Below are positions 754 to 50,856 of a stretch of DNA of 64,000 bases, piece after piece; position 1 is the stretch's first letter; each line of letters opens with the position of its first letter. Below the pieces are notes generated by a model. It was given only the letters and a program-made list of their open reading frames with translations, was not told the origin of the DNA and searched no databases. This DNA comes from Leucoraja erinacea. Taxonomy: Eukaryota. The stretch is from positions 11,594,001-11,658,000 of the forward strand of contig NC_073409.1 of assembly GCF_028641065.1 (NCBI RefSeq), read 5' to 3'. Both the position numbers and the translations under genes were made by a program.

Positions 754-1390
754 GAAACATAGAAACATAGAAATTAGGTGCAGGAGTAGGCCATTCGGCC
801 CTTCGAGCCTGCACCGCCATTCAATATGATCATGGCTGATCGTCCAACTCAGTATCCCGTACCTGCCTTCTCTCTATACCCTCTGATCCCCTTAGCCACA
901 AGGGCCACATCTAACTCCCTCTTAAATATAGCCAATGAACTGGCCTCGACTACCCTCTGTGGCAGAGAGTTCCAGAGATTCACCACTCTCTGTGTGAAAA
1001 AAGTTCTTCTCATCTCAGTTTTAAAGGATTTCCCCCTTATCCTTAAGCTGTGACCCCTTGTCCTGGACTTCCCCAACATTGGGAGCAATCTTCCTGCATC
1101 TAGCCTGTCCAACCCCTTAAGAATTGTGTAAGTTTCTATAAGATCCCCTCTCAATCTCCTAAATTCTAGAGGGTATAAACCAAGTCTATCCAGTCTTTCT
1201 TCATAAGACAGTCCTGACATCCCAGGAATCAGTCTGGTGAACCTTCTCTGCACTCCCTCTATGGCAATAATGTCCTTCCTCAGATTTGGAGACCAAAACT
1301 GTACGCAATACTCCAGGTGTGGTCTCACCAAGACCCTGTACAACTGCAGTAGAACCTCCCTGCTCCTATACTCAAATCCTTTTGCTATGA
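754..1390 (-). mobile_element. CR1-type (HER1-like) LINE 3' fragment, young
   Basis: ORF 849..1442 LYRVLVRPHLEYCVQFWSP...VQRRFTRLIPG...WNSLP is the CR1 ORF2 C-terminus; (TTCTATGT)n-type tail at ~754-772; near-identical 3' end recurs at ~58655-58826. Confidence 0.9.
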
Positions 1391-2594
1391 AATATCTTTC
1401 TGTGAACAGCAGCCAATGTCTCACCAGTTCACCACATTTCAATATCTATCATAACTGACCTGCTAACTGATGCAAGGTAAAACCATTAAAATATATAGGT
1501 GGTAACCTATTTTGCAGCAGGTTAATGAGGTAGTGCAGACAGGCTCTGCCTTATTCATTACCAGGAATACAAAAGTAACAACTAGCAGTGAGATACAAAA
1601 AAAGTTCTCTACTCTTGTCATTCATTAATACCATGGTTATTCTTTACTTAAATATCACTTACCTACACTCTCTCCACAGATTTCTGGATATTAAGGGAAT
1701 TCATTGTTATCCTTTTTGAATAAACTCAATGACATCCTCTGTTGTATTGAAATGCAAAGATTCATCGCCTCCCAAGTGAAGAACTTTCTCCTATCTCAGT
1801 CCAATGTGGCCTCTCTGCCGCTCCGAGCTGTGACCCCAATCCTGAACTCTTCTGCTGTAGAAATAGTCCCCCTTGCATCTAGCCTTTCAAATAAATCATC
1901 TCAGATTTCTCCAAACTCAGAACCGAGTATTCAACTTTTCCTCACATGACAAACTCGCTTTCACTGGAACCAGTCTAGTGGACTTTCACCACATTCCCAT
2001 CATGGCAAATCAATGCCTTTTTGTATTTTCTGTTCAAATGGCATCCAGTCCTTAATTATCAAATGTTACAAGAGTCACATTTCCTTGATCTGATTATATG
2101 CCAAGCAACAATCACAGCATTGTTACTAAAATCAGTTGCCCCTCCCCACGATCATGTAAATCAGTAGCCTGCCTCCTAAAAATCAGCCCCCATCCCACCA
2201 AAGAGCTGGCAGCAGCACTTGGAGATGAAAGGCCTTTCCTTTGCTGGGAGAATGCGATTCTGATGCCAGTTGAAACCTTGTGCTGCCTTTTCATCCCTTA
2301 ATCAGCCTGCATTTATCTATTTATTTTTATTATTATTTATTTAATTCTTTATTTCGAGCGGAATAAAAGAATAAAAAGCAAGTGTGAAACAGCATACAAA
2401 AAACAAACAAAAAACAAAACAGGAATATTTATAAAGTGTCATAAACAATATTTATAAATAAATGAAATCGTAATGGTTCGAAAAGGAGCAGGAAGAAGCC
2501 AAAGCTTATTAATTCCCACCCCTTATTTAACTGCTTATAATTATCTTAAACAAATTCAGCAGCTATAATTTAGCAGCATTAAAATTGTACTTAC

Positions 2595-8814: not shown

Positions 8815-11800
8815 GTGACTGGTGTACAAGGACACCCAGGACTTGTTGCACCTCCCGTTTTCCTAATCTGACACTATTAAGATAATCATAACTTTTTTTT
8901 TATTCTTGCCACCAAAGTGGATAATCTCACATTTATCCACATTATACTGCATCTGGTTTGCATCTGCCCACTCACCCAACCTATCCAAGTCACCCTGCAG
9001 CCACATAGCACCCTCCTCGCAACTCACACTGCCACCCAGCTTTGTGTCATCCCAAAACGTGGAGATGTGACATTTAATTCCCTCGTCTAAATCGTTAATA
9101 TATATATATATTTTTTATAAATCATGTTTCTCTGGGTATCTAAATTTTTAGTTGTTTGTTATGACATCGGATGGAAGCTGCATACTAAATCTCGTTGCAC
9201 CTATGTGCAATGACAATAAAATATATTATTATTATTGTAAATAATTGGTGTCCAAGCACTGAGCCTTGCGGCACCTCATTAGTCATTACCTGCCATAAAG
9301 GACCTGTTAATTCCTACTCTTTGCTTCCTGTCTACCAACCAGTTCGCTATCCATGTCAATACCCTACCCTCAATACCATGTACTCTAATTTGGCACACTA
9401 ATCTCTTATGTGGGACCTTACCAAAGGCTTTTTGAAAGTCCAGATACACCACATCCACTGGCTCTCCTTTATCCATTCTACTTGTTACATCCTCAAAAAA
9501 TTCCAGAAGGTTAGGCAAGCATGATTTCCCCTTCATAAATCCATGCTGACTTTGACCGATCCTGTCACTGCCTTCCAAATGTACTGCTATTACATCTTTA
9601 ATAATCGACTCAAGCATCTTCCCCACTACAGATGTCAGGCTAGCTGGCCTATAATTCATTTTTCTCTCTCCCTCCTTTCTTAAAAAGTCCACAGGAACTG
9701 ATCCAGAGACTATAGAACATTGGAGAATGATCACCAATGCAGCCACGATTTATAGGGCCACCTCCTTGAGTACTCTGGGATGCAGACCATCAGGCCTTGC
9801 CGATTTATCTGCTTTCAATCCCAACAGTTTACCTAACACAATTTCCTGATTAATGTGGATTCCCTTCAGTTCTCCCTCCCACTAGAACCTCGGTCCTCTA
9901 ATATTTCTGGCAAATTGTGAAGACATAACCAGAGTACTCATTTAACTGTTTTGCCATTTCCTGGTTTCCCATTATTAATTCACCTGTTGCTGCCTGGAAG
10001 GGACATACTGTACATTTGTCTTCACTAATCGGCCAATTCTGAAACTCCAAGCCGCGAGTGTGTTCCGATCTGTTCCGACGCTGGAGATTCGATCAACCCG
10101 GCGAGAGGGCCTGTGCATCGGGCCGTCCGACGCGGCGACTGCGGAGGATTCAAAGGCCCCGACCACGGGTGAACAAAGAGGAAGATGACTGAACTTCCAT
10201 CACAGTGGGAAACGTCGATTCCGTTGTGGTGGATGTTTATGTTAAACTCTATCGTGTATCGTGTTCTTTTTATTTGTATGGCTGTATGGTAACACCAATT
10301 TCACTGTACCAATTGGAGCATGTGACAATAAATATGAAGGTGAACATAATTTTTTCCTCTTCACATATCTAAAGAAGATTTTAGAGTCAGTGTTTATATT
10401 CCCCGAAACTTTCTTTCATGCTCTAATTTCCCCCTCTTAATTAACCCCTTTGTCCTCTGTTGAATTCAAAATTTCTCTCAGTCTTCCAGTTTGCTGCTTC
10501 CTCTGGCTAATTTATATGCCTCTTCCTTGGATTTAACACTTTCCTAATTTCCTTCGTTCGCCACAGTTGAGCCGCCTTCTTCATTTTATTTTTACGCCTG
10601 ACAGGGATGACTAGTTACATCCTCAAAAAATTCCAGAAGATTATTCAAGCATGATTTTCCTTTCGTAAATCCATGCTGACTCAGACCAATCCTGCTACTG
10701 CTATCCAAATATGCTGCTATTTCATCTTTTATAATTGACTCCAGCATCACCCCACCACCAATGTGTCAGGTTAACTGGTCTATAATTCCCTGTTTTCTCT
10801 CTCCCGCCTTTCTCAACAAGTGGGATAACATTAGCAACCCTCCAATCCACAGGAACTGATCCTGAATATATAGAGAATATTGGAAAATGATCACCAATGC
10901 ATCCACGATTTCTAGAACCACTTCCTTAAGTACCCTGGAATGCAGACCATCAGGCCCTGGGGATTTATCAGCCTTCAGTCCCATCAGTCTACCCAACACC
11001 ATTTCTTGCCTAGTGTGAATTTCCTTCAGTTCCTCCGTCACCCTAGATCCTCTGGCTGCTAGTACATCAGGGAGATCGTTTGTACCTTCCTTAGTGAAGA
11101 TAGAACCAAAGTACCTGTTTAACTCTTCTGCCATTTCCTTGTTCCCCAATAAGTCCACCATATTATGGTCACTGTTGCCCAAGGGGCTTTGCACAACAAG
11201 ATTGCTAACTAATCCTTCCTCATTCCACAATACCCAGTCTAGGATGGCCAGTTCTACACATTTGTTTACACAACCATCCCCTATACATTCCAGGATATCC
11301 TCGTCAGCATTGTAACCAATTTGTTTAGCCCAATCTATATGTAGATTAAAGTCACCCATGATAACTGCTGTACCTTTGCTACACGCATGCCTGGTTTCCT
11401 GTTTGATGTTATTCCTAACCTCACTACTGCTATTTGGTGGTCTGTACACATCTCCAACAAGCGTTTCCTGCCTTTGGCTATTTCGCGGTTCTACCCATAC
11501 AGATTGTACAGCATCCAAGCTAATGTCTCTCCTTGCTATTGCATTAATCTCCTCTTTAACCAGCAATGCCACCCCACCTCCTCTTCCTTTCTGTCTATCC
11601 TTCCTGAATCTTGAATACCCCCAGCATATTGAGCTCCCAGCCTTGGTCACCCTGGAGCCTCCGTAATCCCAACTATATCATATCCGTTAACAACTAACTG
11701 CGCATTTAATTCATCCACCTTATTACGAATGCTCCTCGCATTAAGGTACAAAGCTTTCAGACTTGTTTTTCTTTTCTCCCTTCTACTTTTTGCTTCTCCC

Positions 11801-16805: not shown

Positions 16806-17126
16806 GTAAAATACAAAGTGCAAGAGGGGGATTCAGTAGATCAGACATCTGGGAGGGGGAGAGGGGGGGGGGGTTGGACAGGCGATTAATTGGGTTGCGA
16901 TCCTTTAATAGATTGCGAATTCTGACCTTAACATTTAGAGGACTAAGTCAATGTGGTACATGTTATGCTATGGCAGTCACCAAAAGTATGAAGGGATTTG
17001 AGACATCAACCTGGATGTTAATGAATGGTGGAGCAAGTTGAAGCACTGTCTCCTGTTCTTATGTTCAGTGATTTTGTCTAAGTGGGTTTTTTTTTCTCCC
17101 CCTCCCTTTCTTTCCCCACTAACCAG

Positions 17127-17273
17127 GAGGGTGGCTTTCTAACAGCCTGGCGATCATGACTGATGCTGTTCACATGCTAGCCGATGTGCTGGGGATTGCT
17201 GCTTCCTTGGTTGCACTATATCTTTCAGCAAGGCCTCCAAGTAACAGGTTCACGTTCGGCTGGCATCGATTCG
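17127..17273 (+). CDS. SLC30A4: ZnT4 coding exon 2
   Basis: accag|[20 protein letters not shown]...RFTFGWHRF|gtacgt; CDF signature, TM2 HxxxD; 147 nt. Confidence 0.96.
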
Positions 17274-20200
17274 GTACGTGATAATTTGCCTGATTATTGT
17301 AAGCTCTCACTTCACCTTTTTGGTGCACAATTGGTTGGATGATTACAGTGTGTTAATTTCCTTAGATATGGATCAATATCAACTTTTTGCCATCCAGACG
17401 TGCTGTGGTATAAAGTCTTTGTCTTGCTGCAGTCCTGGCTTTGCTCTCTCAGCACTTCAAGCTGACAGTCCTAAATTGAGATTGATCAGGATAGATGATG
17501 GGCTAAAGTTATAGGAAAAGTATAATGAAGAGAGGCTTTAATGCGGAGCTTGCTGTTTCAGCTGATGAGGTAAACAAGCTGCCCTGTGGGGGTGGGAAGG
17601 GAGGGAACTGCATGGGGAAGTGGAGGGAGCCTCTCACTAACCAAGTACAGTTAGCTGACTCCCCAGTACAACTTGGGAGCTTATAAAGGGATGCTGAAGT
17701 CCCGACCGGAAACATCACCCATCATGTTCTCCAGGGTTGCTCCCTGAACCGCTGAGTTATTCCAGCACTTTTTGTCGATGGGGAATCTCAATACGTTTCA
17801 TGCACCATGGTCTTGCGAGTGTGGGTTTTGGTATATAACGGGAGGGGGGTTCAGGGAGGCTGGTAATGCTGATTTGTCTGTGTGGGAATGTTCACCATGA
17901 GCTTCTGAATGTCAGTAGCTATACGGTGAGTCTTTTGACACTTATTGTTCAAGGTTTTGGTGAGGGTGTGGCCTGGCAGGACGGGTTCTCCAGGTGGATG
18001 CACCCTGTGCATCATGAGGGAGGTGTTAGATGACATGTTCCAGAAATCGTCATGTCCAGTTGCAGCAGCTTGTGCTGTTTCAGAGCTGGGCCGATGCTAA
18101 GAGTCACTGAGGTGCATCCATGGGGCTGATAACTGAATAACATGATTGGGGAGGTGATTACATTGTAGCTTGGGTTTGACAAGGCAGAGTTCATGGGGGA
18201 CCATCAATCAGACTGGAAGGAGAGATACAGAATGTTGGAGTAACTCAGCAGGTCAGGCAGCACATCTGGAGAACATGAATAGGTGATGTTTCAGGTAGGG
18301 GCCCTTCAGACTGATTGGGTCAGACTAGAAGAAGCCCGTGAGTAATGAGCGAGTCATCATTGTTGAGCAGACTTCCCTTTGGCACGCTGTTAGGGGTCTG
18401 TAAAGGAATACAGAGAGAGTCAGGATCATGACACTGAATGGCTCGGCTGCATAGGAGAGCGGGAAGAAAGTGTGAGAACAATAATGATAGGGAATTCAAT
18501 GGTTGGGGTGTGTTTCTGTGCTTGCAGATGTGGCTCCTCGTGCCAGTGACAATCATACCGGGGAACATCTGCAGAACATCTGGAGGGGGTGGGCAAACCC
18601 CAGGAATTGTGGTTCATGTTCTTCAAAGCTTAATTTTAACTGCAAATTAAACTATCTTTGTTTTAGCCTGTATCCATATGCTTCACATATTATTGAGAAC
18701 TATCTTACTATATAGGTAGCTCCATCAAAGAGACGGCACAAGATAATGTGAATGGTCTCCTCCTGTACTGTATCGGTCTTTGCTTATTTATTCAGTTCAA
18801 CCGTACACTCACTCCTGGATTTGTTTTAGTGTAATGGAATTTGTGTGTTGGTAAACTGAACTAAAAATCATTACATTGGAAAACCCTTAATTAGTCAGTC
18901 GCTTGAACATTGACTCACTGTTTGAACTTTGTATTATGTTCCTAAATATAAAACAATAATTGCTGTATGCTTCACCTACACACTGCCTTTAGACCTAAAG
19001 GCACAACATTTACAACAAGACAATGGAGAGTGTATTATGCCACGCAGCATTGACTGCCTAATCTGGTGAGGAGTGACTTTGTGTGCTCCAAATGTATTGC
19101 ATCTGTGACTGAGGCTGAAAGTTTGGACAAAACTCTAGAGAAGAGCTGGTGGAGAAGGAAAGAGTAAGAGTGTGTGTACAGGGATGGGGGGGTCATGATT
19201 TCTGCAGTATAATCATAACACAGATTAAGACTGCATGAGTCAAGGTGTTGTCTAGGCGGAAAAAAGTGAGAAAGCTGTGCTCTTTTAATGTATTATTTTT
19301 TACTGCAATCTCACCTTGAAAATGCCATTTCTTCCCTTGCACCTGCTCTGCCTATCTCCTTTATGTATTGTTAGAATTACAATTCTTAATTCATTTGTGG
19401 GATTTGACTATCGCTCATAAGGCCAGCATCTATTGCCTTTACTGCTTTGAAGAAGGTGTTGATGAGCCACATTTTTGATGGCTGTTGGCAAGGGAGATTC
19501 AGTATTGAGACTGAGTGATGATGAGGTTTATAAGTATATTTCCAAATCAGCCCAATGTGCAAGCTGGGGAACCTGCAGATGGCGGTGATTCTCTGCTCTT
19601 GCTGGTGGAAGAGATTGCAAGTTTGTGGGGCTACTGTCGGGGACCTAGATAAGTAACCGCAGAGCATTCTTTGATATTGCACATTGTAGCCACAGTGGTG
19701 GAAGGAGCGAATCTTGAGGGTGGAGTTTGGGATGTCACTGAATCCATGGTGCCTTATCCTCAATGATGTTGAAGGAAATTGTTGGAGCTATCAATACTGT
19801 CCAATTCTTCTACTAATGTTACAAATACTGCCTTGGACAGACGTATCAATTACAAAAGTACTGGTTGCAGATGTAATCATGCAGGGTGTCCAACTTGGTC
19901 AATGATGGGGGGAAAAAAGTTCCCTGTGAGGATGTCAGCTGTGGTCTTGCTCCAAACAGTGGTTCTTTAAAAGTGCTTATTAAATATTTAGTCTTTGTAT
20001 GTACTGGAAGCCAAGTACAGTATGTTCCCTAAGTGTATTTTGGCAGCAGTGAAGATTTTGGTGAAATTGGGAATTCGTTGCATGGGGGAAAGATGTGGTG
20101 CTTAGTATTAAAAATAACAGAAAGAAAATTGAATTAAGAAGAAAACAACATATTGAGTTGAATAAACTAACAATGTAGCTGGGTACCAAGTCTTGAGCTG

Positions 20201-20347
20201 TTGGCAACTACACCTGCAGTAATTGTTAACCGGAACTGCTTAAGGTCTCGAGTTCAGACCTTGAGCAGGGCTTGCTGTCACGCTGGTGACATCTGTAAGG
20301 CCAGAGGTTATATGGACAGCATGTTCCAGGTGGTGATTGCTGCAGCT

Positions 20348-21830
20348 TGTATCATTTTCAACCTGAGCCTCCAGTCAGGGAGGGTACCAGGTTTGTGGAA
20401 AACATCATGTCTCGTGCCGATTCCCAAAGCAGGGCGGCCGACCGAGATCAACGACTACGGACCGGTGGCCCTTGCATCCCATATCATGAAAACAATGGAG
20501 CGGCTATTCATTCGTCTCCTGAGACCACAAGTCCAGCACGCACTCGACCCACTACAGTCTGCATACCAGGAGAACATTGGGGTGGATGACGCAGTCCTCT
20601 ACATGCTGCACCGGATCTACTCCTTTTTGGACAAACCCGGTGGCTATGTGAGGATTATGTTCTTCGACTTCTCAAGTGCGTTCAACACCATCCAACCCCT
20701 GATTCTGAATGACAAGCTTAAGAAGATGGGGGTGGATTCCACATTTATCTCCTGGATAGACGACTACCTGACGGGTCAACCACAGTTTGTCAAGCTGAGG
20801 GACAGTGTCTCTGGCACAGTGGTGTGCAATGTTGGAGCCCCACACGGAACGGTTCTGGCCCCGTTCCTCTTCACCCTGTATACAGCAGACTTTAACTATA
20901 AGTCTGACACATGCCACGTACAGAAATATTCAGATGATACAGCGATTGTGGCATGTGTAAGGAACGGGCAGGAGGAGGAATACAGGAACTTGACCAGTTC
21001 CTTTTGTGCCTGGAGTGAAGAGAACTGTCTCATCCTGAACACAACTAAGACTAAAGAGATGGTGGTTAACTTTGGCAGGTCCAAGCTCCCCCTTCAGCCG
21101 GTCAACGCTGCTGGGGCTGACATTGAGGTGGTGCAGACATATAAATACCTTGGAGTGCACCTTGATAACAAACTGGACTGGTCTGTCAACTCTGCATCCC
21201 TCTACAAAAAAGGCCAGAGCAGACTCTTTTTCCTCAGAAGGCTCAAATCCTTCAATGTGTGTAATGACATGCTGCACATGTTTTACAACACTGTGGTTGC
21301 AAGTGTTATTTTCTATGCTGTTGTCTGCTGGGGCAACAGCATTAGTGCAAAAAACAACAAGAAGCTGGTCAAACTGGTTAAACGAGCTAGCTCAGTGCTG
21401 GAGGGGAGAGTAGACTCTGGGATGGATGTGCTTGAGAGGCGTATGAGGCACAAGGTGCAGGTCATCCTGAAAAACCCCGGGCATCCCCTCCATGTAATTC
21501 TGGAGAGTCAAAAGAGCACTCGGAACAACAACCGGCTCCTCTCCCTGCCCTGTAGAACGGAGCGGTTCAGGAGATCCTTCACCCCTGCAGCCATTAGATT
21601 TTATAATTCGGACCGCTAGGCTGTAGGGGGATGCATTCTTGCAATTTTTAATTTTTAATTGTTAATTATTGGTCTTTTTAAGTATTTATTGCTCTCAGGT
21701 AGTGTCCACAGTGTATTCTATGTATTTTCTGTCTGCGTTCGTTTTGAATCTGTGGGTTTGTTGGTTGGGGGCTTCTGGACATCTGAATTTCCCTGAGGGG
21801 ATCAATTAAGTATTTATTATTATTATTATT
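20348..21830 (+). mobile_element. Rex1/Babar-clade LINE, 5'-truncated, uninterrupted RT ORF to 21619
   Basis: VRIMFFDFSSAFNTIQP, GAPHGTVLAPFLFTLYT, QKYSDDTAIV, YKYLGVHLDNKLDW, HPLH, RFRRSF; (TAT)n tail at ~21810-21830. Confidence 0.88.
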
Positions 21831-35896: not shown

Positions 35897-36167
35897 CTAA
35901 ATAGAGAGAAATGAACTTCAGAAATGTTTTATCATCCAAAAAGTATCCGATCGCACGGCTGGTGTACTACATCCAGATCCTGATCCCCCCCCCCCCCCCC
36001 AACACACACGTCTAGACAAACACACCAAGACCGGAAACCACCAAACGCGCACCCCAACATACAGACACATCCTTGAACACATACACAGTGATGCTTGTTG
36101 CACTTCAACATCTGCAACAGGTCCCCGGCCCCTGTCCCCTGTCTCCCGGCCGGGACCGGATACTTAC

Positions 36168-36255
36168 ATGACATCGCTCTTGGTGACGAGGAAGTAATGC
36201 CGGCGCTGGTACAGAACGAGGCGGCGGTGGCCATCAGGCCGATCAGGGGGATGAG
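36168..36255 (-). CDS. C15orf48: C15orf48 coding exon 2 (apparent 1-nt deletion)
   Basis: ccgcag|LIPLIGLMATAASFCTSAG, then frame shift to YFLVTKSDV(I)|gtaagt; 88 nt where 89 is needed. Confidence 0.85.
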
Positions 36256-36802
36256 CTGCGGGACAGACAGCATCGGTCACCATGGGCTCCGAATGCGGCA
36301 TCGGAGCCCGATTGAAAAGCAACGGGTCTAACAGAAGCGGCTACTCGGCTGCTGCAAACACCCGGGGAAAGTCAACAACAGCGGGCCGGGCGAAGCTCAG
36401 CGCGCCGGGCAGCGGGTGAAGAGGGAGGACTGCGGTCAAGAAACGGACTAAACTGTCGGGAAGAAGAGGGGGAGACAGGCCGAGCGGCAACAGTGGTTCG
36501 GGAACAGACCGGGGGGTGATAGAGATGGAGCGGTCGGTGGCATAAGGGAGACGGGCCGATAGGCCATAATGGGGGGGGATGCTGTCGATGGGCCGATCGG
36601 TCCGGTGGCTCACGGAGACGGGCTGGGCGTGATAGAAACATAGAAAACAGGTGCAGGAGTAGGTACCCGTTCCTGCTTTCTCCCCGTAGCCCTTGATTCT
36701 GTTGGTGCCAAGAGCTAAATCTAACTCTTTCTGATGGAGGGGACGGGCCGAGTGGTCAGGGAGGATAGGACGATCGGAAGGGGGTGGGTGGGGTTGGTTC
36801 AC

Positions 36803-36841
36803 CTCCTTCCTCCGGCGGAGCATCGTGAAAAAGTTCGACAT
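36803..36841 (-). CDS. C15orf48: C15orf48 coding exon 1
   Basis: aagATG MSNFFTMLRRRKE|gtgaac; cf. human MSFFQLLMKRKE. Confidence 0.88.
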
Positions 36842-36899
36842 CTTCGCAGCGCTTGTCCCGATGATACCGGAAAATGAGAAACGAGCGTCGTAGCCTAGT

Positions 36900-37110
36900 T
36901 TTGAAACACCGGTCACAAACGGCCCCGCCCACCCGCCACATGCCCCGCCCACCCCTGCTAGCCCCGCCCCCTCCTCTGCTCGCCCCGCCCACTCCCATGA
37001 TAGCCCCGCCCACTCCACCTGAGTTCAGCAGCGACGAGACTCCGGTCACGTCCACAGCAGAGACAGAGGGTGGAACGACTGGGGCGGGGCAAGGCCGCGA
37101 GCGCTAAGGT
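36900..37110 (-). promoter_or_regulatory. GC-box (Sp/KLF) cluster, C15orf48 promoter
   Basis: Five CCCCGCCC motifs at 36923-37011 plus GGGGCGGGG at 37081, immediately upstream of exon 1. Confidence 0.7.
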
Positions 37111-39574: not shown

Positions 39575-39730
39575 TCACATTCCTGGGTTCCTAGCTGAGA
39601 ACAGGTTGCAGTAAAAGTCAAAGTGCTGGTCAGTTAGTGAAGGTTGAAAACTCTGAAGAGAGTTCATGAAGTGCATTTGTGTCACTGCGGCAGCATCAAG
39701 CCCATTTTCTTGTAGAGACAATAACGCAGC
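39575..39730 (-). CDS. AFG2B: SPATA5L1/AFG2B exon 8 (last)
   Basis: tgacag|AALLSLQENGLDAAAVTQMHFMNSLQSFQPSL...RNPGM*; minus-strand AATAAA at 39465-39470. Confidence 0.92.
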   Translation of the reverse strand, partial: AALLSLQENGLDAAAVTQMHFMNSLQSFQPSLTDQHFDFYCNLFSARNPGM

Positions 39731-41489: not shown

Positions 41490-41612
41490 CTCCTTGCACA
41501 AATTCTGTAAATCTGCTCCAGTAAATCCTGCGGTCGCAGCTCCTAGCTCCTTCAGGCACACGCCATCCAGTGGCGTTTTGGAAGTGCAGATCCTCAGAAT
41601 GGAAAGTCTTGC
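41490..41612 (-). CDS. AFG2B: SPATA5L1/AFG2B exon 7
   Basis: cgttag|ARLSILRICTSKTPLDGVCLKELGAATAGFTGADLQNLCKE|gtgagt; 123 nt. Confidence 0.94.
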
Positions 41613-42464
41613 CTAACGTGTAAAAAATGTTAATTAGTAACCAAGAAAAACAGTGTAGAGATGATCACAATGCAAATTGACCACTATCTAAACAATTTCA
41701 CTGAAAATGTGATCATCTGATCATTTCTTGTTGTTTTTGGAACATTATTATACACAGGCGCTGATATATTACTGTGTCAGTGAGGTTTGGAAATACTTTA
41801 TATAAACACAGGACTGTCCTAAGCGTGACATATAAATGTTCCAATTAAAGGCAGAAGTGTAGTACACCTTTATCCACAGCTCTTTGTGTCTTCAAAAAAC
41901 TCCAATAAATTGGCCACACGTGATTTCTCTTCCCTCCCCGTTGTGTTGACCTGATCATCCCGATTTGTTTGCAAGTGCTTTGCTATGACATTTTAATAAT
42001 AGCGTTTAACGTTTTTCCAATGACAGATGTTAAAACTGACAGGACCGTAATTTCCCTTTTTCTGTCTCCCTCCCATTTTGAATAAAGTACATTTGCTACT
42101 TTCAAAACTAATGCAACCGTCCCTGGAATTACGAAGTTAAGAAAAATTGAAACCTATGGGTCAACCATCTACTGTTTTTTAAGGGCTTTTCCAGGACACA
42201 GTGACCCATACGTCATCAACTCCACAAGTCGCTTGGATGATTGTTATTTTCCGACTTGCTCTCTGTTCCCGATTCTGGAATTTGAGCTATCTCTAATAGC
42301 TGCGCTCTGCAATGGTTTATCAAATGGTGGCCACTTCAACAAAACATTCAATGGAACTTTATTTATCCCAAGAGGAAAATTGATCTGCCAACAGCCATAA
42401 AAACACAAAATATATAAAGCATGAAATTAAAGTGACGAGTGGAAAGTACAGAAGTGCATCATCA

Positions 42465-42620
<156 letters not shown>

Positions 42621-44582: not shown

Positions 44583-44816
44583 CTTTCTTGCCTGTTCCTC
44601 AGATTGATCCCCTTCACACGTCAGCATGCTCTTGCCAGTTCCTCTTCTCTCAGCCAGTGGGGATCCAATTCCATCCATCTCGTTGAGAAGGACAGACAGT
44701 ACTCGCTGCTGTACACTGTGGCCACTTGCAATGTCCCTCGACCGAGACCCAACTATTGAGTCAATCTCATCCAGGAACAGGATTGATGGAGCGGCAGCTC
44801 GAGCCTGGCGAAAGAC
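44583..44816 (-). CDS. AFG2B: SPATA5L1/AFG2B exon 5 (D2 Walker B)
   Basis: tgcag|[23 protein letters not shown]...[13 protein letters not shown]...QARK|gtgaaa; 234 nt. Confidence 0.93.
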
Positions 44817-45075: not shown

Positions 45076-45285
45076 CTCAGACAACGCCTTTTCAGAATCA
45101 CCCACAAAGGGGGAGAAGAGCTCAGCCCCACTGACCGACAGCAAGGAGCACCGGCAGCTGGAGGCCGTGGCCTTCACCAACGTGGTCTTTGCACATCCTG
45201 GTGGTCCATACAGGAGGATACCTCGACAAGGCCTCAGTCCCATCCTCACAAATGCTTCCGGGTACATCAGTGGCCACTCGACACT
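45076..45285 (-). CDS. AFG2B: SPATA5L1/AFG2B exon 4 (D2 Walker A)
   Basis: tggcag|[16 protein letters not shown]...[12 protein letters not shown]...[11 protein letters not shown]|gtgagc; GCAKT is typical of SPATA5L1; 210 nt. Confidence 0.95.
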
Positions 45286-45483: not shown

Positions 45484-45642
45484 CTGCCTTAGTTTCAACT
45501 TGATATCATCCAAACCTCCGACCTGGTCCCAGGGCACGGGTCTGAAGTCAGTCAGGCCAATGCTGCTCCGCAAAGATGAAGGGAACACGATCTTCAGCGC
45601 CTCCTGGAAGTCTGCCAGTGTAATCCGCTGCTTCACCGAGCT
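45484..45642 (-). CDS. AFG2B: SPATA5L1/AFG2B exon 3 (5' boundary slightly uncertain)
   Basis: [53 protein letters not shown]|gtaaag; first in-frame AG after the poly-T tract is AAG. Confidence 0.88.
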
Positions 45643-47067: not shown

Positions 47068-47253
47068 CTGGGAACTGCGCCTGATGACCTGCAGTGCGGT
47101 CTCTCGACACAGGGCTGTCAGGTCAGCCCCAACGTAGCCACTTGTTGCTTCCGCCAGCCAGGACACATTAACATCAGCGCTCAGAGGCATCGGGGCAGTG
47201 ACCGCTTCCAAAATGGATTGGCGTTGCAACATAGTAGGGACTCCGATTGTGAT
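47068..47253 (-). CDS. AFG2B: SPATA5L1/AFG2B exon 2
   Basis: ctccag|ITIGVPTMLQRQSIL...GYVGADLTALCRETALQVIRRSSQ|gtatgg; 186 nt. Confidence 0.94.
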
Positions 47254-48677: not shown

Positions 48678-49757
48678 CTCCCGATCAAATCGTCCTGGCC
48701 TCCTCAGTGCGGGGTCCAATGCCTCGGGTCTGTCCGTTGCGGCCACTAACACGAATTGCCTGCGGTCCTGCCCATCGAGCAGGCCGAGGAGCTGCGCCAA
48801 CAGCCGGTGCCCGGCGCCCTGGCTCCGACCCGCCCTGCGGGAAAACACGGCGTCCAACTGGTCGATGAAGAGCAGGCAAGGCCGACGCTCGGCCGCAGCC
48901 CGCCCAAAGAGACGCCGGAGGCGGCGTTCGCTGTCCCCGGGCCGCGGCCCGAGCAAAGCTGAGGCGGAGGCCTCCAGCACCGTGGCGCCCAGCTCCCGGG
49001 CCAGGCAGTGCAGCAGCCGGGTCTTGCCCACGCCCGAAGGCCCGAGCAGCAGCACGCCCCGCGGGCAGTCCAGGCCCAGGCGCGCCGACGTCTTGGGGTA
49101 GAGGAGCGGCCAGGCCAGCGCCTCCCGCAGGGAGGTGAGAACAGGCTCGGGCCCCGGCCCCGGTGCCTCGGGCGGGGCTCGGCACTCGGCCCGGTACTGA
49201 TCCAAACTCAGCACCTCAGCCACCTGCACCTCTGCACCTGCCGCTAACAGAGCGGCCCCAGCTGCCGGTGGATCCAGCCAGACGACCTCGAGCTGGAGCA
49301 AGGCGCCGGGACAGGCCGAGGCCTCGGGGCCTGCTACCCGCACCACCAGCCCGGCGCTCAGGTAGACGCCCTTCAGCAGGCCGCGGATCAGCGGGAGGGG
49401 GAGCGGGGACGGAGGCTCCGGGCCGTCGGGCCGCGCCGCCACCACCGCCCGCACACACACCCGCCGGGCCCTACTGCAGCCGAGGGGCTGCAACTGCCCG
49501 ATGCCCAGGCTTAGGCCTCGGGCCGCGCTGTCGGGGAAGCCCGGGCTGGCGCACTTGGTGTCCAGCTGCACGAAGCCGTCGGCGCGGTCAGCCCGGGGCC
49601 AGGCGGAGCAGAGGGCCAGGCCACCGGCCACGCACACCCGTAGCGGGGCACCGAGGCGCACGGCCAGCGTTGCCAGAGCCCGGGGCCCCAGGCGGCAACG
49701 CTGCGAGTCGCGGTCCCGAGCATCGGGCGGCAACAGCCGCAGCTCCGGCCCCTCCAT
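48678..49757 (-). CDS. AFG2B: SPATA5L1/AFG2B exon 1 (N-domain and AAA D1); whole protein ~760 aa
   Basis: MEGPELRLLPPDARDRDSQRCRLGP...CSAWPRADRADGFVQLD matches the SPATA5L1 N-terminus; GPSGVGKT; DPALRRPGRFDRE|gtgagg; 1080 nt. Confidence 0.95.
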
Positions 49758-49820
49758 GGGGCCGTTACCTGGGTGATCGACTAGTTTCCGCCGGAAGCCT
49801 TCCCAGTATCCGGTCGGACG
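49758..49820. promoter_or_regulatory. Bidirectional promoter core between AFG2B and ARPIN, within a CpG island (~48600-50000)
   Basis: 63 nt between divergent ATGs; ETS/GABPA-type CCGGAAG at 49791-49797. Confidence 0.75.
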
Positions 49821-49921
49821 ATGAGCCGCATCTACAGCGACGAGCGGCTGCGGGTCGGCCCGGTGCATCGACACCGCCTCCCCGGCTGCTGGACCCCGGC
49901 CACCGCCACACGGACACCATG
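49821..49921 (+). CDS. ARPIN: Arpin (Arp2/3 inhibitor) coding exon 1; whole protein 229 aa
   Basis: MSRIYSDERLRVGPVHRHRLPGCW...|gtgagg; cf. human MSRIYHDGALRNKAVQSVRLPGAW; phase 2. Confidence 0.92.
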
Positions 49922-50285: not shown

Positions 50286-50780
50286 ACATGAATACAGAAC
50301 AGATCAGTGTGTCCATATACCATTATATAAATATATACATACATGAATAAATAAACAGATAAAGTGCAAATAAACAGATAATGGTCTATTAATGTTCAGA
50401 GTTTTGTTTCATTTGAGTTTAATAGCCTGATGGCTGTGGGGAAGTAGCTATTCCTGAACCTGGACGTTCAGAGAAGGAATAGTTCGTGTTTCGGGTCGAT
50501 AACGAATCTTCAGTTCCTTTTCATAACCTATTCCTTTTCTCCCGAGATGCTGCCTGTCTCGCTGAGTTACTCCAACATTTTGTGTCTGAGGTGTAAACTA
50601 GCATCTTCAGTTCCTTGTTACACAGAAGACAGGAATGCCCGGTGAACTTTGTCAGTGCCAGAAACGTGCCGACTCTTGTGATTTTACCGCGTTCTATGCA
50701 AAACAAATCATTTCATTGTACCTAGGCACATGTGACAACGAAGTATCATTGAGCCACATTGACTCGGTATTTGTTTACAG

Positions 50781-50856
50781 TGGTCCTGGTGCGGTGCTGG
50801 AAGGGGAACTACTGCTGGTGACCCGGCATCAGATCGAGGACGAGACCGACAGTAAG
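50781..50856 (+). CDS. ARPIN: Arpin exon 2
   Basis: ttacag|GPGAVLEGELLLVTRHQIEDETDSK|gtgagc; 76 nt. Confidence 0.93.

What the first reader, a model, noticed from the sequence alone, without database searches (positions are those of the whole stretch)
48732..48860. SPATA5L1 AAA domain 1 carries Walker B E->Q and sensor-1 N->D: a natural hydrolysis-dead or acid-swapped ATPase site
Seen in sequence: D1 reads LLFIDQLD (CAG codon at 48858-48860, residue ~300) and VAATDRP (GAC codon at 48732-48734, residue ~342), while D2 of the same gene has canonical LFLDEID and AATNRP. Walker A (GPSGVGKT) and the arginine fingers (LRRPGRFD) of D1 are intact. Established: Walker B E->Q is the standard engineered ATP-trapping, hydrolysis-dead mutation in AAA+ proteins, and the sensor-1 Asn helps position the same attacking water. 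Inference: either D1 of this subunit has become a binding-only pseudo-ATPase within the SPATA5/SPATA5L1 heterohexamer, or the catalytic carboxylate has moved from Walker B to sensor 1. Two substitutions at functionally coupled residues are less likely to be assembly errors than a single one.
Basis: partly seen in the sequence, partly recalled or inferred. Interest (0 to 1): 0.78.

Follow-up and report, generated by a model that had tools for sequence, protein, structure and literature searches.

The report
Rays' naturally switched-off ATPase site
All skates and rays examined carry the same change that labs use to stop ATP breakdown in one motor domain of a ribosome-building enzyme, and sharks altered that site another way, so the domain likely works as a scaffold rather than a motor in these fishes.

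Summary
The window holds the single, intact, spliced SPATA5L1/AFG2B gene of a skate (760 aa). D1 reads Walker B DQ and sensor-1 TD; D2 is canonical. Contigs of three runs show no other letter at either codon. It is a clade trait: 8 of 8 named batoid species (all four orders) have DQ/TD, and 9 of 9 galeomorph sharks have DD with sensor-1 S (6) or N (3). All 234 other jawed-vertebrate records, plus lamprey, hagfish and amphioxus, keep DE. One unnamed non-vertebrate orthologue has DQ/TS independently. The partner SPATA5 is canonical. In human cells the same E304Q only weakly impairs function unless D2 is also dead. Best reading (0.65): batoid D1 is a hydrolysis-dead, probably still ATP-binding protomer that lends its arginine fingers to SPATA5. 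The acid swap is unlikely (0.07). Batoids also lost the N-linker Gly-Gly, so the site may be empty (0.17). Exon 1 turned GC-rich in elasmobranchs, which confounds rate arguments. No activity was measured. Not found in print.

The parts
48678..49757 (-). SPATA5L1/AFG2B exon 1 (residues 1-360: N domain and D1 large subdomain); GC 74%, GC3 84%. An in-frame upstream ATG at 49868 would add 37 residues
49146..49181 (-). N-D1 linker, Pro-rich, lacking the family's Gly-Gly (or Ala-Gly) cap; pLDDT under 50 at residues 193-202
49020..49043 (-). D1 Walker A GPSGVGKT (K245 kept in all 17 elasmobranch species)
48927..48956 (-). D1 pore loop 1 with Arg in place of an aromatic residue, as in human SPATA5L1 (R274)
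48858..48860 (-). D1 Walker B Gln300 (CAG) in place of the catalytic Glu; the preceding Asp299 is kept
48732..48734 (-). D1 sensor-1 Asp342 (GAC) in place of Asn
48690..48701 (-). D1 arginine fingers R353 and R356 (trans-acting), invariant
47068..47253 (-). exon 2 (D1 small subdomain, GYVGADL at 47119-47139)
45484..45642 (-). exon 3 (D1-D2 linker with canonical VGGL)
45076..45285 (-). exon 4 (D2 Walker A GPPGCAKT, aromatic pore loop SPFVG)
44583..44816 (-). exon 5 (D2 Walker B LFLDEID; Glu562 GAG at 44768-44766)
42486..42620 (-). exon 6 (D2 sensor-1 Asn641 AAT at 42569-42567; arginine fingers); followed by a GC donor
41490..41612 (-). exon 7 (D2 small subdomain)
39575..39730 (-). exon 8 with stop codon

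Best explanation
This is the skate's one intact SPATA5L1 (AFG2B) gene, whose first AAA domain has Gln for the catalytic Glu as in all batoids sampled, and that domain is likely a hydrolysis-dead site that probably still binds Mg-ATP. Shown: the residues, their clade distribution, the intact spliced gene, canonical D2 and canonical partner SPATA5. Inferred: in the 4:2 SPATA5:SPATA5L1 ring the two SPATA5L1 D1 sites would hold ATP without splitting it, keep the ring and the C1orf109/CINP-bound N domains in place, and donate their arginine fingers to the adjacent SPATA5 D1 site. Pulling RSL24D1 off the pre-60S subunit would be powered by the other ten sites (SPATA5 D1 and D2, SPATA5L1 D2). The sensor-1 Asp is read as a second change tolerated once hydrolysis no longer mattered, possibly one that tightens nucleotide binding as in DnaA. 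Sharks likely reached a slowed state of the same site by other changes (Glu to Asp, mostly Asn to Ser).
For: E-to-Q blocks hydrolysis but not binding in AAA+ proteins (PMC5039278 passages). The identical change was made in human SPATA5L1 (E304Q): it lowers the complex's ATPase rate but has only a minor effect on RLP24 release (PMC12019325 section 8), and only weakly reduces rescue of proliferation, while D1+D2 double-dead fails and SPATA5 single mutants fail (bioRxiv 10.1101/2025.11.07.687187 section 11). The natural pattern fits: D2 is DE/TN in 17 of 17 elasmobranch species and own-genome SPATA5 is canonical in both domains. Binding residues are kept: Walker A Lys, Walker B Asp and both Arg in 17 of 17; the D1 small subdomain changed 0-1 of 25 conserved columns. 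D1 keeps the AAA fold in the model (best match human SPATA5L1 chains of 9lgo). Still constrained: 7 synonymous to 2 non-synonymous differences in the D1 part of exon 1 among laid contigs, pN/pS 0.12-0.14, P about 0.004-0.007; within batoids D1-large/D2-large branch length is 0.50/0.41, the same ratio as in bony vertebrates, 1.39/1.17. Recurrence: unnamed P0382, placed outside vertebrates within the SPATA5L1 clade, has DQ, TS and a lost Gly-Gly with canonical D2. Yeast Drg1 D1 E346Q does not affect growth (PMC9646744 passage citing earlier work).
Against: No ATPase or binding measurement exists for any elasmobranch protein. The N-linker that helps form the adenine pocket is lost in batoids and predicted disordered, so binding may be weak or absent. 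In human cells D2-dead rescues fully and D1-dead slightly less, so 'cheapest site to lose' would predict loss of D2, not D1. 234 of 234 other jawed-vertebrate records keep the Glu, so it normally matters. Invariance of Q300 and D342 across batoids is weak evidence of selection on them, since 124 of 170 D1-large columns are invariant across the four orders. The selection test rests on 9 differences from three contig sets.
Confidence: 0.65

Rival explanations
1. Batoid D1 is an empty scaffold: it neither hydrolyses nor appreciably binds ATP, and is kept only for its fold, its interfaces and its trans arginine fingers.
For: Loss of the N-linker Gly-Gly in all 8 batoid species; that linker contributes to the ATP pocket and is low-confidence in the model. 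An Asp at sensor 1 adds negative charge near the gamma-phosphate (inference). 15-18 of 74 conserved D1-large columns changed in batoids. P0382 lost the linker too.
Against: Walker A Lys, Walker B Asp and GYVGADL are kept in every batoid with those columns. Sensor-1 Asp supports stable nucleotide binding in DnaA (PMC4245941 passage).
Confidence: 0.17
2. Acid swap: the sensor-1 Asp has taken over from the Walker B Glu as the base that activates the attacking water, so batoid D1 is still an active ATPase with rewired chemistry.
For: Q and D co-occur in 8 of 8 batoid species; both positions contact the attacking water. One unnamed CDC48-like protein, P0454, pairs a non-acidic Walker B (DT) with sensor-1 Asp in its D2 (single case).
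Against: P0382 has DQ with sensor-1 Ser, so E-to-Q is fixed elsewhere with no replacement acid. Human E304Q is nearly tolerated, so no compensation is needed. Sensor-1 Asp is a listed natural variant, linked in DnaA to binding. N-to-D is an A-to-G change in an exon that became GC-rich. The one paper search aimed at such a mechanism listed 1 paper, and the passages read describe no such swap in AAA+ proteins.
Confidence: 0.07
3. GC-biased drift, no functional shift: exon 1 became GC-rich on the elasmobranch and batoid stems and mildly harmful changes were fixed, the catalytic residues among them, leaving a slightly impaired enzyme rather than a repurposed domain. This concerns the cause; D1 would still be dead or slow.
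For: Exon 1 GC 74%, GC3 84% against 45-58% GC in the other exons; Gly+Ala+Arg+Pro fraction 0.41-0.51 in elasmobranchs against 0.32 in the chimaera and 0.24 in the coelacanth. Long stem branches affect the N domain (0.74 and 0.48) as much as D1-large (0.44 and 0.54), both in exon 1, but not D2-large (0.20 and 0.11).
Against: 34 of 234 other records with an equally shifted exon 1 (mostly mammals) all keep DE, as does lamprey (0.48); P0382 has DQ with the opposite composition (0.22). E-to-Q and E-to-D can arise without any gain of GC (genetic code).
Confidence: 0.1
4. Assembly error, rare allele or pseudogene.
For: None found.
Against: No other letter at either codon in three covering contig sets; eight exons give a 760-aa frame with no internal stop, identical to the named record P0123; spliced joints across the introns in three runs; single copy in the genome search with the N domain; same residues in 8 species.
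Confidence: 0.01

Closest known systems
Human SPATA5L1/AFG2B of the 55LCC complex and its engineered E304Q mutant (PDB 9lgo, 8rhn; PMC12019325; bioRxiv 10.1101/2025.11.07.687187)
   Same: Orthologue; N-D1-D2 layout, Arg at D1 pore loop 1, canonical D2; Q300 is the natural equivalent of E304Q
   Different: Fixed in the germ line of a whole superorder; adds sensor-1 Asp and loss of the N-linker Gly-Gly
Pex1 and Pex6 D1 domains (degenerate AAA ring; PMC5070193, PMC6696164 passages)
   Same: First AAA domain of a Cdc48-family heterohexamer without the catalytic Glu, D2 intact
   Different: Pex D1 lost Walker A/B and arginine-finger conservation in the whole ring and across eukaryotes; here only two of six D1 sites are affected, Walker A and fingers are kept, and the loss is lineage-specific
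NSF D2 domain (PMC11532144 passages)
   Same: High-affinity, slowly hydrolysing structural domain with Ser at sensor 1, as in 6 of 9 sharks; a DD Walker B in NSF D2 is recalled, not shown by a call
   Different: NSF D2 lacks functional arginine fingers and is a homohexamer ring; batoids have Gln/Asp, not Asp/Ser
E. coli DnaA sensor-1 Asp269 (PMC4245941 passage; Kawakami 2006 seen only as a title in its reference list)
   Same: Asp at sensor 1, associated with stable nucleotide binding
   Different: Different AAA+ clade; DnaA still hydrolyses ATP; no Gln at Walker B
Yeast Drg1/Afg2 D1 (PMC9646744 passages)
   Same: Same pathway; D1 E346Q reported not to affect growth, D1 seen as the structural high-affinity site
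   Different: Homohexamer; wild-type keeps the Glu

Membership tests
SPATA5L1/AFG2B (Cdc48-family type II AAA ATPase) | N domain plus two AAA domains | tested here: met
SPATA5L1/AFG2B (Cdc48-family type II AAA ATPase) | Closer to AFG2B than to AFG2A, p97 or NVL | tested here: met
   phmmer 323 bits to AFG2B against 215 or less to the others; tree clade with support 1.0 on the branch separating SPATA5-like and CDC48-like rows
SPATA5L1/AFG2B (Cdc48-family type II AAA ATPase) | Arg, not an aromatic residue, in D1 pore loop 1; aromatic residue in D2 pore loop 1 | tested here: met
SPATA5L1/AFG2B (Cdc48-family type II AAA ATPase) | Partner genes present in the genome | tested here: inconclusive
   SPATA5 exons found and a C1orf109-family match over the cut-off; CINP not searched
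SPATA5L1/AFG2B (Cdc48-family type II AAA ATPase) | Assembles the 4:2:2:2 55LCC complex and releases RSL24D1 | not testable with these tools
   inferred from the human papers
Active AAA+ ATPase site (D1) | Walker A Lys and Thr/Ser | tested here: met
Active AAA+ ATPase site (D1) | Walker B hhhhD[D/E] with an acidic catalytic residue | tested here: not met
   Gln300 in batoids; sharks have Asp, which fits the wider consensus
Active AAA+ ATPase site (D1) | Polar sensor 1 (Asn, also Ser, Thr or Asp) | tested here: met
   Asp342; non-canonical for this family but a listed variant
Active AAA+ ATPase site (D1) | Arginine fingers supplied by the neighbour (SPATA5 D1) | tested here: met
   own-genome SPATA5 exon reads LRRPGRFD
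Active AAA+ ATPase site (D1) | Gly-Gly N-linker of p97-like proteins | tested here: not met
Active AAA+ ATPase site (D1) | Measured ATP hydrolysis or binding | not testable with these tools
   needs purified protein
Pex1/Pex6-type degenerate D1 | Decayed Walker A and arginine-finger region | tested here: not met
   both kept against the description
NSF-D2-type structural domain | Ser at sensor 1 and no functional arginine fingers | tested here: not met
   Ser in 6 of 9 sharks and 0 of 8 batoids; fingers kept in all 17
Pseudogene | Stops, frameshifts, loss of splicing or neutral evolution | tested here: not met

The most novel reading that the evidence does not exclude
Rays and skates moved the catalytic carboxylate of an AAA ATPase from Walker B to sensor 1: Gln300/Asp342 is a working, rewired active site, a natural second-site suppressor of the standard E-to-Q trap.
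Probability: 0.07. Interest if true: 0.85.

Novelty: new variant of a known kind. Interest (0 to 1): 0.52.

Why it matters
SPATA5L1 is an essential ribosome-maturation and neurodevelopmental-disease gene, and recent human work asks what its own ATPase sites add to the SPATA5 motor. Batoids are a whole-animal, clade-wide natural equivalent of the E304Q experiment. They suggest that vertebrates can live with ten rather than twelve hydrolysing sites in 55LCC, and that D1, not D2, is the site that evolution gives up (rays, probably sharks, and one unnamed invertebrate-like lineage). They catch an AAA domain early in the change to a pseudo-ATPase, which in Pex1/6 and NSF was finished before the last eukaryotic ancestor. 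They also give ready-made sequences for testing what sensor-1 Asp or Ser does beside a Gln or Asp Walker B. It is a variant of a known theme, and the human mutants already hinted that this site is nearly dispensable, which caps the surprise.

Tried and rejected
1) Arginine fingers as evidence that D1 is active: rejected, they act in trans. 2) The sub-stoichiometric ATP in the human 'SPATA5(1):SPATA5L1' centre: not used, because the text does not make clear which subunit owns that ATP. 3) 'D1 decays faster than D2' as proof of relaxed catalysis: batoids changed 15-18 of 74 conserved D1-large columns against 5-8 of 90 in D2-large (Fisher P 0.001-0.011), sharks 10-16 against 4-7 (P 0.003-0.17), chimaera 3 and coelacanth 2 of 74; but the N domain in the same GC-rich exon sped up as much, so this is confounded, and the training set was dominated by birds and teleosts. 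4) More elasmobranchs: a third search with an elasmobranch-weighted profile found no further species and no squalomorph shark. 5) Raw RNA reads: run X24 gave 1 read off the codons; no listed holder is on record as RNA, which is no evidence either way. One search's table of other letters was cut (287 rows not shown), so it was used only for splice joints. 6) A second, canonical SPATA5L1 copy: none; the D1 search gave fidgetin-like genes and a VCP exon and the N-domain search one match (only top candidates are scored). 7) A full maximum-likelihood tree of the representatives did not finish; a smaller FastTree was used. 8) No coding DNA of other species and no ancestral states were obtained, so cross-species dN/dS and the order of changes are open. 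9) A complex prediction was not sent: the pair would pass by likeness to solved structures. 10) Earlier scan findings: three look-ups, nothing. 11) Supplementary files of the papers were not seen; the alignments and rescue panels there (PMC11055677 Figs S2B, S4J-M; PMC12019325 Supplementary Fig. 7; bioRxiv Fig. S11) may bear on single-domain requirements and on whether any shark or ray sequence was shown.

Full report
Observation. On the minus strand, exon 1 (49757-48678) encodes 360 residues with LLFIDQLD (CAG at 48860-48858) and VAATDRP (GAC at 48734-48732). The best solved relative is human AFG2B/SPATA5L1 (323 bits; next family 215), which has DE and TN at these columns. Eight exons give a 760-residue frame with no internal stop and 0 mismatches to record P0123, which its source names as Leucoraja erinacea. 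D2 has [21 protein letters not shown] and LRPGRFD. Of 4 runs laid on exon 1, three contig sets cover both codons and list no other letter there; two of them, from other studies, run from the end of exon 1 into the start of exon 2. Three more runs show joints across the introns. A genome search with the N domain found one copy.

Distribution. Three homologue searches and three cluster look-ups were tabulated. All 18 batoid records with a D1 read DQ and TD; they cover 8 named species in the four orders of Batoidea (placement of the skates and stingrays is recalled). All 14 tabulated shark records read DD; of the 9 named species 6 have Ser and 3 (Hemiscyllium, two Chiloscyllium) Asn at sensor 1. 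All are galeomorphs (placement recalled); no squalomorph was found. Of 234 other jawed-vertebrate records (redundant, with isoforms, fragments, unnamed rows and two chimaera records) 234 have DE; sensor 1 is Asn in 228, Ser in 5, Asp in 1 (a partial bird record with a broken Walker A). I dropped the prokaryotic and fungal CDC48-like hits, one C-terminal fragment (P0125) and one shark isoform (P0265) before counting. D2 is DE/TN in 17 of 17 elasmobranch species. From the library of representatives I aligned 52 of 144 new rows; 51 have DE in D1, among them lamprey, hagfish, amphioxus, a hemichordate, a brachiopod, two molluscs and two fungi. So DE/TN is the ancestral state, by outgroup argument. 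The exception is unnamed P0382: DQ, TS, no Gly-Gly linker, canonical D2, and a place in the SPATA5L1 clade outside vertebrates on a tree built without the two motif positions. It is one sequence, seen on two contigs, and I did not check it in reads.

Order of events. Glu to Gln and Glu to Asp are each one base; Gln to Asp needs two. The simplest reading is that constraint on the site eased on or after the elasmobranch stem and that rays and sharks changed it separately. This is inference from the code and the tree; no reconstruction was run, and squalomorphs are missing.

What else changed and what did not. Batoids replaced the Gly-Gly N-linker, which helps form the ATP pocket (PMC5039278 passage), by a Pro-rich stretch that the model leaves disordered. 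Walker A Lys, Walker B Asp and both arginine fingers are kept in 17 of 17 species, and the D1 small subdomain changed 0-1 of 25 conserved columns. The model (mean pLDDT 80) shows a normal AAA fold in D1 and matches the SPATA5L1 chains of 9lgo best by E-value; whole-chain TM-scores are modest (0.44-0.45), which I put down to domain orientation. Own-genome SPATA5 has canonical Walker A, pore loops, Walker B and sensor 1 in both domains and D1 arginine fingers; its D2 finger exon was not seen. A C1orf109-family gene is present.

Selection. Fourteen exon-1 differences among the laid contigs are 9 synonymous and 5 not; in the D1 part 7 and 2, pN/pS 0.12-0.14, P 0.004-0.007 against neutrality (small sample, alleles and possibly sister species mixed). 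Within batoids D1-large evolves at the usual rate relative to D2-large (0.50/0.41; bony vertebrates 1.39/1.17; sharks 0.81/0.53). The excess of change lies on the elasmobranch and batoid stems and covers all of exon 1, N domain included, together with a shift to GC-rich codons. That weakens any rate-based claim of D1-specific relaxation. It does not explain the catalytic change alone: 34 of 234 other records with the same shift keep DE, and P0382 has DQ without it.

Mechanism. Walker B Glu is the catalytic base and E-to-Q stops hydrolysis but not binding; sensor 1 is usually Asn but can be Ser, Thr or Asp; arginine fingers act on the neighbour (PMC5039278 passages). The exact human equivalent has been tested. 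SPATA5L1 E304Q lowers ATPase activity of the complex but has a minor effect on RLP24 release (PMC12019325, section 8 read whole). It only weakly reduces rescue of proliferation, D2-dead rescues fully, the double mutant fails, and either SPATA5 mutant fails (bioRxiv 10.1101/2025.11.07.687187, section 11 read whole). PMC11055677 (passages) reports that Walker A and B residues are needed, largely with double mutants. I therefore read batoid D1 as hydrolysis-dead and probably ATP-bound (0.65), or empty (0.17), or acid-swapped (0.07); GC-driven drift as the whole story gets 0.10. For sharks, DD with Ser or Asn may be slow rather than dead. Against my reading: the human data would make D2 the cheaper loss, yet D2 is never lost; its aromatic pore loop may be the reason (inference).

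Comparison and novelty. Non-hydrolysing domains in Cdc48-family rings are known: Pex1/Pex6 D1 and NSF D2 (passages of PMC5070193, PMC6696164, PMC11532144). The skate domain works like these but fails their defining features, as it keeps Walker A and fingers and affects two of six D1 sites. Sensor-1 Asp has a precedent in DnaA (PMC4245941 passage). I found no report of the elasmobranch state: SPATA5L1 + Walker B (7 papers, 5 listed), SPATA5L1 + shark (1, unrelated by its listing), AFG2B + evolution + vertebrate (1, unrelated by its listing), elasmobranch + SPATA5 (0), 55LCC (7 listed), and two general searches. The library lacks most subscription papers, and supplements were not seen. PMC9646744 and PMC9599734 were seen as passages.

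Verdict. Real, clade-wide, apparently unreported; a new variant of the known pseudo-ATPase theme, with a close laboratory precedent that makes it believable and less surprising. Interest 0.52.

Noticed in passing
window 49820-49921 and about 50779-50853, + strand: A gene starts head-to-head with SPATA5L1, under 100 bases from its ATG; a contig of run X9 splices from 49921 to this second exon, which has a weak Arpin match (PF10574, E 0.003, below cut-off). In human the head-to-head neighbour is GATM (recalled), so the order differs.
   Followed up: partly
window 35935-37024 (-) and 17123-17278 (+): Exons resembling C15orf48/NMES1 (weak B12D match, E 0.03) and a cation-efflux zinc transporter (E 5e-16), the neighbours of SPATA5L1 in human (recalled); supports orthology.
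   Followed up: partly
window 41613-42485 (-): The intron between exons 6 and 7 appears to begin with a GC donor (GC-AG intron).
   Followed up: partly
protein P0382 (unnamed, 762 aa): Non-vertebrate SPATA5L1 with D1 DQ, sensor-1 Ser, the same GPSGVGKT Walker A as skates and loss of the N-linker Gly-Gly: apparent convergence.
   Followed up: partly
protein P0454 (unnamed, 762 aa): CDC48-like protein whose D2 pairs a Thr at the Walker B Glu position with Asp at sensor 1: a second case of these two positions changing together.
   Followed up: no
proteins P0025/P0144, P0165, P0312, P0316, P0199: Sensor-1 Asn-to-Ser in SPATA5L1 D1 occurs with an intact Glu in a silverside, an anteater, a skink and a hoopoe, so this position is loosely held across vertebrates.
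   Followed up: partly
L003 and L004 (G000 C40 and C7): Fidgetin-like single-exon genes with altered Walker B (FINELD, FISEAD) and sensor-1 regions; degenerate motifs are known for this family (recalled).
   Followed up: no
L007 (G000 C39) and L005/L008 (G000 C1): Two distinct VCP/p97-like genes in this genome.
   Followed up: no
window 849-1445, 10766-11677, 20171-21619: Long frames that look like pieces of LINE-type retrotransposons (endonuclease and reverse transcriptase; by eye).
   Followed up: no
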